In this document: positions 10,504 through 57,462 of the stretch, piece after piece
Layout of the letters: every line of letters begins with the position of its first letter
Position numbering within the stretch: position 1 is the first letter of the stretch
From: a virus
Lineage: Duplodnaviria; Caudoviricetes
Direction: 5' to 3' (one strand)
IMG/VR virus record: IMGVR_UViG_3300022876_000002
Length of the DNA stretch: 64,000 nt
Notes under the pieces: model-generated
The model's input: only the letters and a program-made list of their open reading frames with translations
Told to the model about the DNA's origin: nothing
Database searches by the model: none
Made by a program: the position numbers and the translations under genes

Positions 10504-12678
10504 ATGACTGCTTTGACTAGCATCATCCCGGGGAAGGTGATCAATAACGGGATCAATGACGTATCGATTCCGGAGTACACGCCTGCCCAATCCACTCGCC
10601 CGTTGCACCTGCCAGTCATCCATGGAGTTTTCCCGAAGGGGCAAATGGCTGACGTAAATGGTGTGGTCTGGGTGAACACCAGCCAAGTAGGCGCGGTATT
10701 CGGTCAAGAAATCTTTGATCCTACTTCGCCGTACTACAACCCGAACTCCCTGCTGCTGCAAGCACTCGCTGCTGGTGGCCAGGCTTCGGTCGGTATCCGC
10801 CGTCTGTCGGCCAACAACGTGATAGCTCGTACTGCTCTGTCGGCTTTCGTTAGCCGTAAGACCATCCCGGACTACCAGCGTGACATCAACGGCCGCTTCA
10901 AGCGCGATGCCAACGGCGACTTGATCCCCAACGGTTCGAAGACCTTCAACGGTCTGGTAATCGAGATCAAGCCCGACCCGGATGCTGCTACCAAGGGTGT
11001 TGGTGCACTGACCCGTCGTACTATTCCAGCAGTACCTGCTGCCGGTGGTAACCCAGCGGTTCCTGCTCAGGAAGTGTTCCCGCTGTTCGACGGTATCGGT
11101 GGCATCGGTGACGAGTACAACAAAGGTGGTATGAACTTTGGTGTCCGTCCTGATGGCTTCGCCTACGGTGACATCGCCAACTTCGTAAAAGAGACCGGCG
11201 TGTTCCCGTACACCCTGCGTCAGTTCACCGACACCACGGCTGGTAAGCGTGTAAACGCTAAGACCTCCAAAGGTCGTGAGAACGTCGAAGCGACCCTGTT
11301 CGAGTGCGTGTACCAAAAGACTCGTTACAGCCTGCGTCGTGCCTTCGGCGAGTTCACCGGTACCGACGTCAACCGTAAAGTGGTTCCTGCTCCTGCCCCG
11401 TACTCCGGTGTGCACGTGTACCAGGATTCCATCACCGCGCTGTGCCAAGCGATGTACGCCATCGAACAGCCGAACAACACCGGCCTGGTTGAAGTCAAGA
11501 ACCAGCCGTACCGCCAGATGAACCCGTTCACCTGTGTGGACCACAATGGTGCTCCTTACTACGCGATCGCTACCGTTGACACCGTCAGCTGGGACATGAC
11601 CGCGGCAGTCAAGATCACCGGTGGTGTTTCGCCGTTCCTGGACAACGCAGGTAAACTGCCGTCCTACATCACTCCGGCTCCGCTGGACGATCCGTTCAAC
11701 GTATTGGCGAACACCAAGTCGCCGATCAACCGTAACGATGCGTGGTCGATCAACAACCACCTGATCGCAACGGACATGGAGCAGTATGTAGACTCGATCG
11801 AACAGTCGAACTACACGCGTAACCGTCAGTCCTTCTTCTACGACGTCGGCTACAAGCAAGACGTCAAAGACCAGGCCATCCGCCTGCTGGGCAGCCGTAA
11901 GGACATCATGGTAATCCCGTGCGCTACCGTATGGGCTCCAGGTAAGGCCACCGACATGGGTCAGCTGTACGCCCGTGCTGGTCAGCTGAACTCGGCTGTG
12001 CGCATGTTCCCTGAGTCCGAGTACTGGGGCACTCCGACCACCCGGTCGTCGATCAACCTGATCGAAGCGTTTATCATCGACGAAGTCACCGCAGACCTGT
12101 TCTCCGGTAACATCGACCTGGCATTCGCCTACGCCCAGTTCGCTGGTAACGCTCAGGGGATCATTTTCCCTGCGTTCTCGCCATCGCACGCGGACAACCG
12201 TATTCTGCGCACCATGCACACCCCGAACATCGAGTTCGAAGGTGACGTACAGTCGGCAGAGAACTTCAACCGTGGCTGCATCACCCTGCGTCCGTACGAC
12301 GCCGGTGATCGTCTGTTCCGCCCGGCCCTGGTAACCGTCAACCCCAACGTTGACTCGGTCCTCAAAGACCAGGTTACTGCGTTCCTCTGCGTGTGCATCG
12401 AGAAAATCTGTCAGGACATGTGGAACGTCGTCTGCGGCGACACCAACCTGACTGCGGCAAACTACGTGGCTGTGTTCAAGGACAAAGCCGAACGTAAGTG
12501 CCGTGACTCGCTGGGTTCGCTGGCGCGTAACATCACTGTTACCCCTTCCTACTCGGAAGGCACCGTCGGTAGCCGTGCTGTAATGAACACCCGTGTTGAT
12601 GCTTACTTCAACAAGGGCAAATATCAAATGACCATGGATCTCTTCGCCCACAACGAAGAAGATCTGGCCAACGCCTAA
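10504..12678 (+). CDS. Tail sheath protein (phiKZ gp29-like)
   Basis: 724 aa, very strong codon bias, upstream of a tube-sized gene; N-terminal PLHLPVIHGVFPKG typical of this family as recalled; RBS AAGAGG. Confidence 0.8.
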   Translation: MTALTSIIPGKVINNGINDVSIPEYTPAQSTRPLHLPVIHGVFPKGQMADVNGVVWVNTSQVGAVFGQEIFDPTSPYYNPNSLLLQALAAGGQASVGIRRLSANNVIARTALSAFVSRKTIPDYQRDINGRFKRDANGDLIPNGSKTFNGLVIEIKPDPDAATKGVGALTRRTIPAVPAAGGNPAVPAQEVFPLFDGIGGIGDEYNKGGMNFGVRPDGFAYGDIANFVKETGVFPYTLRQFTDTTAGKRVNAKTSKGRENVEATLFECVYQKTRYSLRRAFGEFTGTDVNRKVVPAPAPYSGVHVYQDSITALCQAMYAIEQPNNTGLVEVKNQPYRQMNPFTCVDHNGAPYYAIATVDTVSWDMTAAVKITGGVSPFLDNAGKLPSYITPAPLDDPFNVLANTKSPINRNDAWSINNHLIATDMEQYVDSIEQSNYTRNRQSFFYDVGYKQDVKDQAIRLLGSRKDIMVIPCATVWAPGKATDMGQLYARAGQLNSAVRMFPESEYWGTPTTRSSINLIEAFIIDEVTADLFSGNIDLAFAYAQFAGNAQGIIFPAFSPSHADNRILRTMHTPNIEFEGDVQSAENFNRGCITLRPYDAGDRLFRPALVTVNPNVDSVLKDQVTAFLCVCIEKICQDMWNVVCGDTNLTAANYVAVFKDKAERKCRDSLGSLARNITVTPSYSEGTVGSRAVMNTRVDAYFNKGKYQMTMDLFAHNEEDLANA

Positions 12679-12693
12679 AGGAGGGTGTAGACC

Positions 12694-13593
12694 ATGGCAT
12701 CGGATACTAACCTGCCGCACCGGACGCCCGAGACGCTGCTTAACGTCAGCGACCCGTTTGTCCAGGCACTCGATATCGGTAACCGTCCGGTCATCAACCC
12801 AGCGCAAGGTGGGCAGTATGGCTGGGCTGGTAACATCTTCGAGTACGTTTCCACTCAACCACACGTTTCGCAACAGGCGTTCTGCATCGTGTTGTCGACT
12901 CCAGCCGGGTTCTCCCGGCTGCCAGCCGGTGACCAACTGCACTCCCTGTGCAAATCGTTCTTCGAGAACCGTACGCGGATCTTCGACGGTCTGTCCGACC
13001 AGACGCAAATTCAGTTCGCTGATATGCGCTGGACCGGTCACCGTATGGCGATCGCTGTTGGTGCTCAGCGTACCCTGGGTGCTGTGACCCACACCGGTTA
13101 CGACGTCGAAGGTGAACCATTCACCAAGATGTTCAAGGTATGGCAACAGTGGCTGGTAATGGACGCTGAAGTCCTCAACGCCAAGATGGTCATCCTGGAC
13201 GATCCGGGTGACATGCTGCTGGACGAAACCGGTTACTCGGCTATCTACTTCGAGCCGACTCGTAACTTCCGGGACATCGCCCACGCCGCGCTCCTGGTGG
13301 GTGGTCAGCCTACCCAAAACGTGCAGATCACTCTCCGTCGCAACAAGGACGAAGAGAACCAGATCCGCGATATCGCAATGGAGATGACTGGCGTCATCGA
13401 ATTCGACACCTACGCGGTGAAAGAGATCGCTCGCCAGATGCTCCAGCTGATGCCTCTGTACAACCCGGATGCTGTTACTGCTCCGGTCGGCTTCAGCCAG
13501 CGTACCGCGATCCTGGAGAACCTGCCGTCTGGCACCATCGAGCGCATGGTTGAGCAATCGACCCGCATCGATCAGCCAGCCTACCTGGGTTAA
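12694..13593 (+). CDS. Tail tube protein (phiKZ gp30-like)
   Basis: 299 aa directly after the sheath, RBS AAGGAGG, strong codon bias. Confidence 0.78.
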   Translation: MASDTNLPHRTPETLLNVSDPFVQALDIGNRPVINPAQGGQYGWAGNIFEYVSTQPHVSQQAFCIVLSTPAGFSRLPAGDQLHSLCKSFFENRTRIFDGLSDQTQIQFADMRWTGHRMAIAVGAQRTLGAVTHTGYDVEGEPFTKMFKVWQQWLVMDAEVLNAKMVILDDPGDMLLDETGYSAIYFEPTRNFRDIAHAALLVGGQPTQNVQITLRRNKDEENQIRDIAMEMTGVIEFDTYAVKEIARQMLQLMPLYNPDAVTAPVGFSQRTAILENLPSGTIERMVEQSTRIDQPAYLG

Positions 13594-53357: not shown

Positions 53358-54533
53358 ATGGAACCAAACTTCAACGAGCTCAACAATACCGACCATGAAG
53401 ACGCCCCGCACTTGTTCGAGACGTTGTCGCCAGAGTATACGGATATCCCAGACCCAGAGCACTTCGACACCATCTGTGAAGGCGCCCTGGACACCGTTAA
53501 GGGCATGGAGTCCATGTCCACCACCTACACCAAGGCTCAGTCCTATCTGTTCGCCTGCATGTCCGCAGCAGACCATATCGACTACAAGCAACAACGTGCT
53601 GGTATGGAAGGCGGGTTCTTCTCCGCCATTGGTGATGGCCTGGGCGCTGCATGGGACTTCATCAAGAAAATGTTCACTGCTGTGTGGCGCGCGTTCTTCG
53701 GCGGTGGGGATAACACCGTAGAAAGCAAGGTCGAAAAAGCCGAGAAGAAAGTCAAAAAGGACAAGGAGGACGTACAAGAAGACGTCAAGCCTGGTAAGTC
53801 CGAGGAAGTTGTTGAGAAACAACGTAAGAAGGCTAAGGATAAAGCTAACAAGGTTAAGAAAGACCCGAAAGCTTCTTCCAGTGACAAAGCCATTGCCGAC
53901 CAGATGATCAAGAAGATCGACGAAGGTAATGTCAAGTCTACTAAGCAGAAAGAAGACGATCTTAAAGTAATTAAGGAAAACTACTTCAAGATCAGCAAGG
54001 ATACTCGCGAGACCATCATCAAGAACGTTGGTGAAGCAGAGTCCCTGCGTCGTAAGTACAAAGAGTACGTCGAGAAAGACCGTTCCAGCGAAGTTACTTC
54101 TGATCGTTGGAAGAAATGCTACGCAACGTTCAAGTCTAGCGTATTTGGTAAACTGTTGGATCACCCGATTAACCAAATCGTTAAGGTCGACGCTATCAAG
54201 AACCTTGGTCAGGGCGTGGATGTATTCAGCCAACTGGAACAAGTGCTCTCTGGCCACCGTGGTGTAGCTGAGACTATCAGCAATCAGAAAGCTACTGTTG
54301 AGTCGGAGATCAAGGAACTGGAAGAAGCCATTCGTAAGAAAGGCAAGGGTTCTAACAGTGGTGAAGTCCATGGTGAGAAATACAACACCAAAGACCAAGT
54401 CCGTGAGCGCCTGGCTTCGGCTAAAGTGGTACTGGGTATCATCAACGCCACTGCTGGCTACCAGACTAAAGCCGTGCAATCGGTAGAACGTCTGAGCGCT
54501 AACGTGAAAGAGCACTTCTGCCCGTTCATGTAA
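53358..54533 (+). CDS. Head/ejection protein of the phiKZ gp93/gp162/gp163-type paralog family
   Basis: Acidic propeptide, AGME cleavage motif, then amphipathic GFFSAIGDGLGAAWDFIKKMF and a Lys/Glu-rich helical body. Confidence 0.65.
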   Translation: MEPNFNELNNTDHEDAPHLFETLSPEYTDIPDPEHFDTICEGALDTVKGMESMSTTYTKAQSYLFACMSAADHIDYKQQRAGMEGGFFSAIGDGLGAAWDFIKKMFTAVWRAFFGGGDNTVESKVEKAEKKVKKDKEDVQEDVKPGKSEEVVEKQRKKAKDKANKVKKDPKASSSDKAIADQMIKKIDEGNVKSTKQKEDDLKVIKENYFKISKDTRETIIKNVGEAESLRRKYKEYVEKDRSSEVTSDRWKKCYATFKSSVFGKLLDHPINQIVKVDAIKNLGQGVDVFSQLEQVLSGHRGVAETISNQKATVESEIKELEEAIRKKGKGSNSGEVHGEKYNTKDQVRERLASAKVVLGIINATAGYQTKAVQSVERLSANVKEHFCPFM

Positions 54534-54593: not shown

Positions 54594-56237
54594 TTACGCG
54601 TCGGATTCATCCTTACCAGCCGGTTCATCATCCACTACCGGAGTAGGGATATCACTTACCTTGATCTGACGGATGCTACCGATTGGGATACCGTCTTTGA
54701 GGTCGGCTACCACACGGTTGGCATACGGACGCAGGTATGGAGACTTGATACCGAACATGTAAGCGTAGATGATCTCTACCATACGGTCGGTGTGTACGTC
54801 GAATACCTTCTTACGGAAGTTCAGTTCATCCTTGACCAGAGGGATGGCTGGAGAACCATCTTCAGGGTACTCGTATACACGCCAGCTGTTGAGGTCGAGA
54901 CCGATGTTACCACCATGCTCGTGCAAGGCCGTCATAACGTCGTTAGCGACCTTTTCCACGTAACCCTGTACATCGCGTGGGCTGATCTGGTAAAGCTCCT
55001 TCATGAAGTGGCTAGAGGCCAACAGACGGGTCTTAACAACCTTGTCGAATGCTTCCTCGGCATAAGCACAGTTTGGCAGCGCTTTGAGGGACTCTTCGAT
55101 CAGTTGGTCAACCCACTGGCTAACCTTGGTCAGCTTACGGACAGCAACCAGTACATCGTTACCCAGGTGCGACCACTCAGCCAGATCGATTGGACGGTCA
55201 CCCAGGCTGTACTCACCGTTGTCAGGCAGACGACCAGGTACACGATCCAGACCGATAACCAAACGGGTAAGTGTGTCGTTACCTTTGAACACCAGCATCA
55301 GAGCATGGTCGCGTACGGTAACGTGTGGGGCAATACGCTCAGCTTGCTTGGTAGCAATGGCGATGAAGCGATCGAAACGACCATTGAAGGCAGCGATTAC
55401 GTCGTCAGTACGTTTGAAGTCACCATTGAGCATGTCATCCCACTTGTGGGTTGGCTCGATTGGACGAAGCCAGCTCAGAGGCCACTCACGAGAAAGCTGA
55501 GTGATCATTTTCTTGTTACCGCGAGCGATCATGCCTGGAGAGTTGTTATCCTCACGGCACCAGTCACCAGCAGTGCGTTGACGAACTGGATTGGTAAGAC
55601 CGTCGTACCACATGCTGATAAAGAAGTCGAAACTGTCAGCGCGCAATACGTAAGTCATCGGGCTGATGTGATCACGCTCGAAACGGATGTAGGTAACTTC
55701 GGTGTCACCTTGGAAACCGTTGTAGGTCATCACACAACCCATTGCCGGCACACCTGGATTGACCGAGGTGAAGAAGTTATGCAGGGCAATGGAGACCTTG
55801 GTGTAGTCGTGCTGCTTCTCGCCGTGGATGTTTCGTTGCTCGGGGAAGTCTTCTGGGCCGTTGTCCCGTGTCAGATTAACCTTAAAACTAATGTCGGGAG
55901 CGAACGGGTAGTAGTGGTTGAAACTACCAAAGTCCATGTTGCTCACGAAGTACGGGTCAACATACTCGTATACATTACCCGCCCATTCGGATGCAGGTTT
56001 ACCAAGCACATCGTCAAGTTTGGATACCCCCACTTCCTGAACTGGTTCTGGACCTTGTTCGGTAAACAGTAAAGTGTCACCCGGTTCTACAGCACCAGAA
56101 TGATCAGTAGTTCCGACATAGCTAGGAATCCCGCCGTAGCCTTCATTAATGATCGGCCGGGTGTTCACATCCAAGGCTTGTACAAACGGATCGTCCTTGG
56201 ACAACAGGACATCGTTACGGCCAGTGGTATCACTCAT
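54594..56237 (-). CDS. Hypothetical protein (547 aa) whose N-terminus resembles the tail tube N-terminus; start MSDTT
   Basis: ATG at 56237 behind AAGGA, overlapping the upstream stop; DPFVQALD..RP.IN and WAGN..EYV are shared with the tube. Confidence 0.75.
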   Translation of the reverse strand: MSDTTGRNDVLLSKDDPFVQALDVNTRPIINEGYGGIPSYVGTTDHSGAVEPGDTLLFTEQGPEPVQEVGVSKLDDVLGKPASEWAGNVYEYVDPYFVSNMDFGSFNHYYPFAPDISFKVNLTRDNGPEDFPEQRNIHGEKQHDYTKVSIALHNFFTSVNPGVPAMGCVMTYNGFQGDTEVTYIRFERDHISPMTYVLRADSFDFFISMWYDGLTNPVRQRTAGDWCREDNNSPGMIARGNKKMITQLSREWPLSWLRPIEPTHKWDDMLNGDFKRTDDVIAAFNGRFDRFIAIATKQAERIAPHVTVRDHALMLVFKGNDTLTRLVIGLDRVPGRLPDNGEYSLGDRPIDLAEWSHLGNDVLVAVRKLTKVSQWVDQLIEESLKALPNCAYAEEAFDKVVKTRLLASSHFMKELYQISPRDVQGYVEKVANDVMTALHEHGGNIGLDLNSWRVYEYPEDGSPAIPLVKDELNFRKKVFDVHTDRMVEIIYAYMFGIKSPYLRPYANRVVADLKDGIPIGSIRQIKVSDIPTPVVDDEPAGKDESDA

Positions 56238-56604
56238 CGTCTTTTTCCTTAGCAACGGTAAACGGGGTTGGGTACAAAGTATATTTTACATCAGGTTCTT
56301 TATGCAGCGGGCGAATAACGATGTTCTTGCTATCGTCTCGATTGGCAATAACAGCCAAAGCCATTTCAGCCGGATCCCATTCATTCAGTGCGGCGATATC
56401 TTCTTGACTAATCCAGTACTCAAAGAAACCACGGTGCTCGGTATGTACGGTAAACATCATGCCTCGGAGTGGTGTCCCTAACACACTATGTACCGCCATC
56501 TTGGCGGACATGGTTTTAGTCGCACCAATACCTTGACTAAATAAAGCATGCCCAAACAGAATACGGAAGTTATCCATTTCCAACTGATCAGGATATACCA
56601 TCAA
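56230..56604 (-). CDS. Hypothetical protein (124 aa)
   Basis: RBS GAGGT; coupled to the downstream gene. Confidence 0.7.
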   Translation of the reverse strand: MMVYPDQLEMDNFRILFGHALFSQGIGATKTMSAKMAVHSVLGTPLRGMMFTVHTEHRGFFEYWISQEDIAALNEWDPAEMALAVIANRDDSKNIVIRPLHKEPDVKYTLYPTPFTVAKEKDDE

Positions 56605-56625: not shown

Positions 56626-57462
56626 GTGGTTATTATGGACTCTAAACTATACAATATGTCTACGATTAATAAATACACTGCACGCCCAGGTCTGGCAATG
56701 CCGCTTCACACCAGAGTAAAAATCCCTGGTGGTTGGACCACTTTAGGTTTACTGAAACTCAATGACTTGGTAGTTACTCCGGATGGCAACTACGTACCCG
56801 TTACTGGTATTTACCCCCAGGGGGTCACCGATAACTACAAGTTCCTGTTCGAAGACGGCAGGGAAGCCGAGTCTCATCCACTACACCAGTGGGCGGTTTA
56901 CGAAGACAACCAGCTTACCCCCATGGTCACTACCACCTTGGATATCTTGAACCACTTTAGTGACTTCGAGTACAGTATTCCTCTGGTAGGTCGCCTTGGT
57001 GTACAGCAAGCTTGCTTGAGTGACCAAGAGCTAATAGATATAGCTCACCAGTTATTAACTGGCATAATCACGTTCCCCAAAGTGGAAGAGCTGCATTACG
57101 AAGACCGGTTAACGATCGCCCTAACAATGATCGAATACCAGGATGCCACCCACACTGACAATGGCGTCTTGATCTCCACTACGTCAGACACAGCCGCATA
57201 CACCCTGAGAGACCTGATCTGGTCATTAGGTGGGATTGTGTATATGGAAGCACAGGACCCATATATCCTGCGTGTGCTGCAACGAGATATCCGTAACCCA
57301 GAGAACCTGGTTAGTGATACCATACATCAGCGCACCAAGTCACTGAAACTGACAGGCATTACCAGAGACGACCCGGTAGAAACTGTGTGCATTAGCATCG
57401 GTGACGACCAAAAGCTTTATGTGATTGGTAGTTACCTAGTCACGCATAACGGCGAATGCTAA
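56626..57462 (+). CDS. Free-standing intein-like (Hint + degenerate LAGLIDADG) protein
   Basis: AMPLHTRV..GWTTLG.LK.ND.V.TPDG...YPQG...FEDG...HQWAV...TVCISI...LVTHN; domain 56695-57450 (252 aa); only 23 aa before and GEC-stop after. Confidence 0.85.
   Translation: MVIMDSKLYNMSTINKYTARPGLAMPLHTRVKIPGGWTTLGLLKLNDLVVTPDGNYVPVTGIYPQGVTDNYKFLFEDGREAESHPLHQWAVYEDNQLTPMVTTTLDILNHFSDFEYSIPLVGRLGVQQACLSDQELIDIAHQLLTGIITFPKVEELHYEDRLTIALTMIEYQDATHTDNGVLISTTSDTAAYTLRDLIWSLGGIVYMEAQDPYILRVLQRDIRNPENLVSDTIHQRTKSLKLTGITRDDPVETVCISIGDDQKLYVIGSYLVTHNGEC

What the first reader, a model, noticed from the sequence alone, without database searches (positions are those of the whole stretch)
54594..56237. Tail-tube N-terminal mimic fused to an unrelated 500-aa body
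Seen: the tube (12694) begins MASDT...LLNVSDPFVQALDIGNRPVIN...WAGNIFEYV. This gene begins MSDT...LLSKDDPFVQALDVNTRPIIN-(53 aa)-WAGNVYEYV. That is 12/16 and 7/9 identities in two blocks (56145-56192 and 55959-55985), with a 45-aa insertion between them. Shared residues often use different synonymous codons (5 of 8 in DPFVQALD), which argues for protein-level selection rather than a recent DNA duplication. Beyond about residue 100 I see no similarity to the tube. The gene is 43 kb from the tail operon, in an accessory island. Inference: the N-terminal arm of tube subunits typically contacts neighbouring subunits or rings. This protein could therefore cap, terminate or decorate the tube, chaperone it, or act as a dominant-negative poison of tail assembly in co-infecting related phages (interference competition).
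Basis: partly seen in the sequence, partly recalled or inferred. Interest (0 to 1): 0.8.

Follow-up and report, generated by a model that had tools for sequence, protein, structure and literature searches.

The report
Tail-tube arm copied onto unrelated protein
A soil jumbo phage carries a conserved protein of unknown function whose floppy front end copies the short "arm" that its tail-tube subunits use to grip each other, which suggests (but does not prove) that the protein docks on tail-tube subunits.

Summary
Window 54594-56237(-) encodes a 547-aa protein. Residues 9-36 and 85-93 match residues 13-40 and 44-52 of the phage's own tail tube (12694-13593). BLASTP gives E 6e-8. The tube is the only reciprocal hit among 198 open frames of the window.

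The match covers only the tube's N-terminal arm. In solved phiKZ, Goslar and phiKp24 tubes this arm reaches onto the neighbouring subunit of the same ring.

The rest of the protein is not a tube. It belongs to a small jumbo-phage family (Pseudomonas phage EL gp167, phrog_23926; 57 representatives in 1.84 billion proteins). Its alpha/beta body is modelled confidently and matches no known fold.

The family's N-terminal extension is disordered, hypervariable and built from short motifs. Tube-arm motifs occur in 12 of 58 members, in three separate clades of the body tree.

The gene is not in an accessory island: its neighbours are conserved across EL-like phages.

Function is untested, and the one complex prediction gave no verdict. 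My best reading, at about 0.4, is a docking peptide for the arm-acceptor surface of tube subunits that are not yet in closed rings. The "poison for related phages" idea is unlikely, because the arm is nearly invariant across the clade. The scan has no earlier record of this protein.

The parts
54594..56237 (-). Whole gene, 547 aa (P0001). It is a member of the EL gp167 / RisingSun gp212 family (phrog_23926).
   Evidence: PHROG match E 1.3e-37 to residues 263-524. tblastn to EL-like and RisingSun phages. Foldseek to EL Q2Z0R4 at E 1e-19.
55953..56237 (-). N-terminal extension, residues 1-95. It is acidic (pI 4.05), predicted disordered, and carries the tube-arm motifs.
   Evidence: AF2 pLDDT below 50 for residues 1-12 and 22-95, with a short helix at 17-22. 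Composition.
56130..56213 (-). Block A, residues 9-36 (DVLLSKDDPFVQALDVNTRPIINEGYGG), matching tube residues 13-40.
   Evidence: 16/28 identical, and 10 of those 16 use different codons. 29.6 bits against the tube-arm HMM, where the best of 580 shuffled controls scored 4.4.
55959..55985 (-). Block B, residues 85-93 (WAGNVYEYV), matching tube residues 44-52.
   Evidence: 7/9 identical. Conserved as (Y)GW(A/T)GNV..Y in the nearest orthologues.
54648..55952 (-). Folded alpha/beta body, residues 96-530, of unknown fold and function.
   Evidence: AF2 pLDDT mostly 80-94. Only phage homologues appear in BFVD, and nothing significant in PDB, AFDB, the VIA wide search or the Atlas.
54597..54647 (-). 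Acidic, disordered C-terminal tail, residues 531-547, with an EPAGKD motif conserved in close orthologues.
12694..13593 (+). Tail tube gene (P0002, 299 aa), the source or model of the copied arm.
   Evidence: PF23806 at E 7e-98. Homologous to the solved Goslar and phiKZ gp30 tubes. It follows the sheath gene at 10504-12678.
12694..12867 (+). Tube N-terminal arm, residues 1-58.
   Evidence: AF2 monomer model has pLDDT below 50 for residues 1-15 and 30-55, a short helix at 21-25, and a confident core from about residue 60. In solved homologues the N-terminal domain extends onto the neighbouring subunit of the same ring (PMC13250141, PMC13742148, PMC9700779).
56230..56604 (-). Upstream 124-aa ORF with no family match. 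Its stop overlaps the target's ATG by 8 nt. A Shine-Dalgarno AAGGA lies at 56246-56250.
   Evidence: A 122-aa equivalent is present in the P0007 contig.

Best explanation
The gene encodes a jumbo-phage-specific protein of the EL gp167 family. It has a conserved alpha/beta body of unknown fold, preceded by a disordered, acidic, fast-evolving N-terminal extension built from short linear motifs. In this lineage the extension carries a copy of the tail tube's N-terminal arm, from the start methionine to about tube residue 52, split by a 45-aa insertion. This much is shown. The next steps are inferred. In assembled tubes of related phages the arm lies on the central domain of the neighbouring subunit in the same ring. 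The copied arm therefore most likely docks this protein onto that arm-acceptor surface. That surface is free only on tube subunits (or tube-fold paralogues such as the tube initiator) that are not yet in a closed ring. The protein would then be tethered to unassembled tube protein. Its likely effect is to hold back or gate ring formation away from the baseplate, or to bring the unknown body activity to the site of tail assembly. Related lineages carry different motifs in the same extension, so the arm looks like an exchangeable targeting peptide and not the core function of the family.
For: The similarity is significant, reciprocal and unique within the window, and within a near relative's 99-kb contig. 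It is confined to the tube segment that is disordered in the monomer model and that contacts the neighbouring subunit in solved homologues (PMC13250141, PMC13742148, PMC9700779). The same short PFVQA(L) helix is predicted in both proteins. Within the aligned blocks, 7 of the 9 nearly invariant tube positions are identical and one more is a conservative change. The motifs persist in orthologues while the spacer varies freely. DDPFVQAL is identical in P0012, which is 49% identical overall, and 4 of the 11 residues identical to the window over the 21-aa block use different codons. P0008 has the RPVINE..GG motif twice in tandem. Arm motifs occur in three separate clades of the body tree: 12 of 58 members, needing at least 6 gains or losses. 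One of these, P0108, has an uninterrupted copy of blocks A and B. In the complete genome G010, the only non-tube hit to tube residues 1-58 is this family's gene. The N or D at RPVI[N/D] matches the cognate tube in all three known pairs.
Against: There is no direct evidence of binding. Most family members, including EL gp167 and RisingSun gp212, lack the arm, so it is dispensable for whatever the family does. Block A has decayed in P0005 and is partly deleted in P0006-P0009. The nearly invariant PHR motif of the tube arm is not copied. In a closed ring every acceptor site is occupied, so the target must be a transient species. There is no evidence that the protein is in the virion: RisingSun gp212 was only marginally detected in a crude lysate, with no peptide at 95% confidence (PMC6034870).
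Confidence: 0.4

Rival explanations
1. Shared third partner. The tube arm and its copy are both recognised by another factor, such as the phage-encoded chaperonin found in EL-like phages, a tail-assembly factor or a modifying enzyme. On this reading the copy is an address label for that factor and not for the tube.
For: The motif behaves as a portable short linear motif inside a disordered region. A relative in this tube clade (Klebsiella phage N1M2, whose tube is 44% identical to the window's tube) is annotated with a putative GroEL. In monomeric tube the arm is free and so could be read by a factor.
Against: No such factor is known. The only documented partner of the arm in solved homologues is the neighbouring tube subunit (PMC13250141, PMC13742148).
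Confidence: 0.2
2. Functionless relic. The 5' end of the tube gene was joined to this gene once or a few times by illegitimate recombination, and the copy is now decaying without a role.
For: The similarity starts at the methionine (MSDT against MASDT), as expected for a copied 5' end. Block A is eroded or deleted in several close orthologues. Most family members lack it.
Against: Both blocks are kept in members whose bodies have diverged to 49% identity, while the spacer is unalignable. One sub-motif is duplicated in tandem. Arm motifs appear in three separate clades, and in the genomes searched they appear in this family only.
Confidence: 0.15
3. Dominant-negative poison of the tails of co-infecting related phages.
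For: An arm mimic could in principle block ring closure of tube subunits.
Against: The tube arm is nearly invariant across about 78 tube representatives of the clade, so the mimic could not spare its own tube. The gene sits in a conserved core gene order and not in a variable island.
Confidence: 0.05
4. Decoy for a host defence sensor that recognises free tail-tube protein. The copied arm would soak up the sensor.
For: Only indirect support: the motif is exposed in a disordered region, and its come-and-go distribution across lineages resembles counter-defence genes. From my own knowledge, not checked here: the defence protein DSR2 is reported to be triggered by a phage tail tube protein.
Against: No defence link was found. 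The body is conserved and syntenic, unlike typical anti-defence genes.
Confidence: 0.05
5. The whole protein is a diverged tube paralogue, such as a tube initiator or terminator.
For: hhalign extends a weak alignment past block B.
Against: That alignment has a probability of 2.6%. There is no Pfam tube hit. The AF2 body is rich in long helices and matches no tube in PDB or BFVD.
Confidence: 0.02

Closest known systems
Pseudomonas phage EL gp167 (Q2Z0R4) and Erwinia phage RisingSun gp212; phrog_23926, function unknown
   Same: Homologous body: 29% identity over residues 247-526, Foldseek E 1e-19. Same genomic position between the large helicase and the DUF7194 / virion-protein / RNase H block.
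   Different: These two proteins are 388-400 aa and have no tube-arm motif.
Tail tube proteins of phiKZ-like jumbo phages (Pfam PF23806 Phage_TTP_14; solved structures phiKZ gp30 9XPF and Goslar gp217 11EC)
   Same: The N-terminal arm sequence, from the methionine to about residue 52, including the short PFVQA helix and the GWAGN..EY segment.
   Different: It lacks the tube core and the C-terminal extension. The arm is split by 45 extra residues, and the PHR motif is missing.
N-terminal extension and donor-strand exchange in chaperone-usher pili (analogy from my own knowledge, not tested here)
   Same: A short N-terminal peptide of one subunit fills a site on the next subunit. A non-polymerising protein can occupy the same site and so control polymerisation.
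   Different: Different folds and no homology. In pili the chaperone's own strand is not a copy of the subunit's peptide, whereas here the peptide itself is copied.
T4 capsid-targeting sequence on internal proteins (analogy from my own knowledge)
   Same: Unrelated proteins share a short N-terminal peptide that directs them to one assembly.
   Different: That signal targets the head core and is cleaved off. Here the peptide copies an assembly interface of a major tail protein, and no cleavage is known.
Tube-domain fusions such as Hcp-effector proteins of type VI secretion (from my own knowledge)
   Same: Tube-derived sequence joined to an unrelated domain.
   Different: Those carry a complete tube domain that builds into the tube. 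This protein carries only the arm peptide.

Membership tests
Tail tube protein, Pfam PF23806 (Phage_TTP_14) | Profile match above the gathering score | tested here: not met
   P0001 has no Pfam family at E up to 1, whereas the true tube scores 328 bits. A full-length tube HMM gives 21 bits, all from the arm.
Tail tube protein, Pfam PF23806 (Phage_TTP_14) | Two-layer beta-sheet core with a long C-terminal extension | tested here: not met
   The AF2 body (residues 100-530, pLDDT 80-94) is alpha/beta with four long helices. hhalign of family against tube gives probability 2.6%. No tube chain appears among the PDB or BFVD hits.
Tail tube protein, Pfam PF23806 (Phage_TTP_14) | N-terminal arm that reaches the neighbouring subunit | tested here: inconclusive
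   The arm sequence is present. Whether it binds a tube subunit is unknown.
EL gp167-like family (phrog_23926) | Profile match to the family | tested here: met
   phrog_23926 at E 1.3e-37. The family profile finds 57 representatives, and P0001's orthologues head the list.
EL gp167-like family (phrog_23926) | Shared predicted fold | tested here: met
   Foldseek against BFVD finds EL Q2Z0R4 at E 1e-19 and the RisingSun protein at 1e-18.
EL gp167-like family (phrog_23926) | Conserved genomic position | tested here: met
   The order helicase, this gene, (391-aa gene), DUF7194, 447-aa virion protein, 156-aa gene, RNase is seen in the window, EL, RisingSun and three metagenome contigs.
Virion structural protein | Detected in purified particles | not testable with these tools
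   The only datum is a marginal detection of RisingSun gp212 in a crude lysate, with no peptide at 95% confidence (PMC6034870).

The most novel reading that the evidence does not exclude
The phage uses a copy of its own tube subunit's inter-subunit arm as a gatekeeper. By occupying the arm-acceptor site of free tube subunits, the protein stops rings from nucleating away from the baseplate, much as pilus chaperones hold subunits before donor-strand exchange. That would be a previously undescribed control step in contractile-tail assembly. The three clades that carry the arm would then show repeated evolution of self-mimicry of an assembly interface.
Probability: 0.15. Interest if true: 0.8.

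Novelty: new variant of a known kind. Interest (0 to 1): 0.5.

Why it matters
How very long contractile tails avoid polymerising in the wrong place is poorly understood for jumbo phages. No assembly factor acting on the phiKZ-type tube turned up in the papers I read. A protein that carries an exact-register copy of the tube's ring-forming arm is a concrete, testable candidate for such a factor, or at least for a tube-directed tether. It also gives a first functional handle on a conserved family of unknown fold. More generally, it shows a phage copying one of its own assembly-interface peptides onto another protein. This appears in three lineages, which argues that the motif is used and is not an accident.

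Tried and rejected
- **Complex prediction.** Two tube copies plus residues 1-100 gave no verdict: score 0.02 against a mark of 0.32, and the tube itself was poorly folded. This is neither support nor evidence against binding.
- **Fold searches of the AF2 model.** PDB (Foldseek), AFDB clusters, the VIA wide search and the ESM Atlas gave no convincing match. The top PDB rows were kinase-like folds at probability 0.11 or less and TM about 0.1, and the VIA hits were generic helical hairpins with Z below 7. The Atlas feature search gave nothing. No solved relative was found by sequence.
- **Family profile against other phages.** It did not detect a homologue in phiKZ, Goslar or N1M2, so nothing can be transferred from their virion atlases.
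- **Pairing more orthologues with their own tubes.** This failed. The ENA and Logan contigs are not held for whole-record search, contig lengths did not pair the protein clusters, and P0108 lies on a 13-kb contig.
- **Are other motifs of the extension also copies?** I tested whether other motifs in relatives' N-extensions copy other proteins of their own genomes. Nothing was found in G010 or G013.
- **N-extension-only search of 5.8 billion proteins.** It returned only two orthologues.
- **Codon comparison of window against G001.** The two sequences are too close in residues 1-70 to measure selection.
- **Sigma-70 promoter and terminator scan.** Counts were at background.
- **The 'full tube paralogue' and 'accessory island' readings.** Both were rejected on the evidence given above.

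Full report
**1. The observation**

The minus-strand ORF at 54594-56237 is intact and begins MSDT. An AAGGA Shine-Dalgarno lies at 56246-56250. The ATG overlaps the stop of an upstream 124-aa ORF by 8 nt. All orthologues start MSD/MSE, so the ATG at 56237 is the start, and the upstream TTG at 56255 is not.

The gene at 12694-13593 follows a 724-aa sheath gene. It is a phiKZ-type tail tube: Pfam PF23806 at E 7e-98, with homology to the solved Goslar and phiKZ gp30 tubes.

BLASTP of the two proteins aligns residues 9-46 with tube residues 13-57, 21/45 identical, E 6e-8.
- 12/16 identities at 56145-56192;
- 7/9 identities at 55959-55985;
- 5 of 8 synonymous differences in DPFVQALD;
- a 45-aa insertion between the blocks.

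Nucleotide identity over block A is 48/84, so this is not a recent DNA duplication.

The match is far beyond chance:
- The alignment score of 94 compares with 25.8 +/- 4.7 for 2000 shuffles.
- A tube HMM searched against all 198 window frames of 80 aa or more finds only the tube and this gene, at E 1e-6.
- The reverse phmmer search finds only the tube, at E 6.5e-8.

**2. What part of the tube is copied**

The similarity runs from the initiator methionine (MSDT against MASDT) to about tube residue 52. In an AF2 model of the tube monomer, residues 1-15 and 30-55 have pLDDT below 50. There is a short helix at 21-25 (PFVQA), and the confident core starts near residue 60. The target's model has the same short helix at 17-22.

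Published cryo-EM structures of homologous tubes describe an N-terminal domain that extends to the neighbouring subunit of the same ring and packs on its central domain:
- phiKZ, PMC13250141;
- Goslar, PMC13742148;
- phiKp24, PMC9700779.

Across 78 tube representatives the arm is highly conserved: PHR..TLL..SDPFVQALD..NRPVIN...GG.YGWAGN.FEY. Within the two aligned blocks there are 9 nearly invariant tube positions. The target keeps 7 of them and has one conservative change. It lacks the PHR motif.

**3. What the rest of the protein is**

Residues 263-524 match phrog_23926 (function unknown) at E 1.3e-37. tblastn finds EL-like Pseudomonas phages and the Erwinia phages RisingSun and Joad, covering residues 247-526 at about 29% identity. 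The named homologues are EL gp167 (388 aa) and RisingSun gp212 (400 aa).

An AF2 model built on a 27-sequence alignment gives:
- a disordered N-terminal extension (pLDDT below 50 for residues 1-12 and 22-95);
- a confident alpha/beta body (residues 100-530, pLDDT mostly 80-94);
- a disordered acidic tail.

Fold searches return only phage homologues: EL, RisingSun, Klebsiella phage Miami and Erwinia phage Special G. Nothing convincing appears in PDB, AFDB, the VIA wide search or the Atlas. Profile-profile comparison of the family with the tube family gives probability 2.6%. The protein is therefore not a diverged tube paralogue.

The family is small. A profile search finds 57 representatives among 1.84 billion proteins.

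**4. Genomic context**

The same gene order appears in the window, EL, RisingSun and three metagenome contigs:
1. large helicase;
2. a 122-124-aa gene (present in some);
3. this gene;
4. a 391-aa gene of phrog_21850 (present in some);
5. DUF7194;
6. a 447-aa virion structural protein;
7. a 156-aa gene;
8. RNase H-like gene.

The gene thus sits in a conserved position and not in an accessory island. In phiKZ the DUF7194 block lies among head structural genes, but this family was not detectable there.

**5. The N-terminal extension across the family**

The extension ranges from 0 to about 240 aa and is hypervariable. In one clade it is visibly modular: the same short motifs appear in a different order in close relatives.

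A tube-arm HMM, calibrated on 580 shuffled extensions whose best score was 4.4 bits, detects arm motifs in three groups:
- the window, G001, P0005-P0010, P0012 and the fragment P0124;
- G010 and P0095 (ITERPVIDPTKGGQIGYIAPTYE);
- P0108, with an uninterrupted copy, LPASDQFVQALALGERPVIDETVQVSNPGYAWNPDY, directly before the body.

On a maximum-likelihood tree of the body, the 12 arm-bearing members among the 58 sequences in the tree fall in three well-separated clades. At least six gains or losses are needed to explain this.

I searched five complete related genomes in six frames with tube residues 1-58. The only non-tube hit was this family's gene in G010, at E 0.006.

Further details within the window's clade:
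- Block B is kept in the nine arm-bearing members, but is lost or degenerate in P0011 and P0013.
- Block A is complete in four members and partial (RPVINE..GG) in three or four.
- P0008 has the RPVINE..GG motif twice in tandem.
- P0012 is only 49% identical overall, yet keeps DDPFVQAL and KYGWAGNV. Over the 21-aa block A stretch, 4 of its 11 residues identical to the window use different codons.
- The N or D in RPVI[N/D] agrees with the cognate tube in the three pairs available: N in the window and G001, D in G010.

Other extension motifs are not detectable copies of other proteins of their own genomes.

**6. Interpretation**

What is shown: an exact-order copy of the tube's ring-forming arm sits in a disordered extension of an unrelated, conserved protein. 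The motifs are retained while the spacer varies. The association recurs in three clades of one family and, in the genomes searched, in no other gene.

What is inferred: the copy binds what the native arm binds, namely the central domain of a tube subunit or of a tube-fold paralogue. In a closed ring all such sites are filled, so the target would be unassembled or incomplete rings. That fits a tether, or a gate on ring nucleation.

Most relatives lack the arm and carry other motifs. The arm therefore looks like an exchangeable targeting peptide, and the body's function remains unknown. I put this reading at about 0.4.

The rival explanations are:
- a shared third partner (0.2);
- a functionless recombination relic (0.15);
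- a poison of related phages (0.05). This is disfavoured because the arm is nearly invariant in the clade, so the phage's own tube could not be spared;
- a decoy for a host defence sensor (0.05);
- a full tube paralogue (0.02).

The single complex prediction returned no verdict and counts neither way.

**7. Novelty**

The body family is known only as a hypothetical protein. In the papers I could search and read, and in the scan's own records, I found no description of a tube-arm copy on a non-tube protein.

Conceptually it is a variant of known ideas: short address peptides on phage proteins, and donor-strand-type control of polymerising subunits. I therefore rate it a new variant of a known kind.

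Noticed in passing
window 56626-57462 (+): A 278-aa ORF whose residues 7-107 match short internal segments of terminase, primase and helicase-loader PHROGs. That pattern is expected for a free-standing intein/Hint-like element. It has no Pfam hit.
   Followed up: partly
loci L010-L015 (IMG/VR relatives G005-G010), N-terminal 240 aa of the family gene: The disordered extension is built from short conserved modules: GIPV.LTDW.NHMD, GYVAPTYENGVANGFVGTEEEW..APKEGYIE.M and VETHTPES..ELLKEMTTPKEG. They appear in different orders and numbers in close relatives, as if short motifs were being shuffled.
   Followed up: partly
window 54597-54647 (-), residues 531-547: An acidic C-terminal tail with an EPAGKD motif conserved in close orthologues (P0005-P0008; P0010 has EPASKD). 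It may be a second docking motif.
   Followed up: no
window 56230-56604 (-): A 124-aa ORF with no Pfam or PHROG match. It is translationally coupled to the target through an 8-nt overlap (ATGAGTGA). It is present in the P0007 contig but absent in the P0012 and P0108 contigs.
   Followed up: partly
window 53358-54533 (+): A 391-aa gene of phrog_21850 with a very Lys/Glu-rich middle, lying between DUF7194 and the target. It is absent in EL and RisingSun and present twice in the P0012 contig, so it is a variable insert in an otherwise conserved block.
   Followed up: no
protein P0008 (metagenome orthologue), residues 21-48: Tandem duplication of the tube-like PVINE.YGG / LINEEAGGG motif.
   Followed up: no
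family N-extensions (P0006, P0007, P0010, P0013, P0016, G009, G012): A second recurrent short motif, [IV]P.[HLV]W (for example INIPEHW and VNIPALWEG). It is widespread in the family's extension. The members with a complete DPFVQAL block (P0001, P0005, G001, P0012) lack it.
   Followed up: partly
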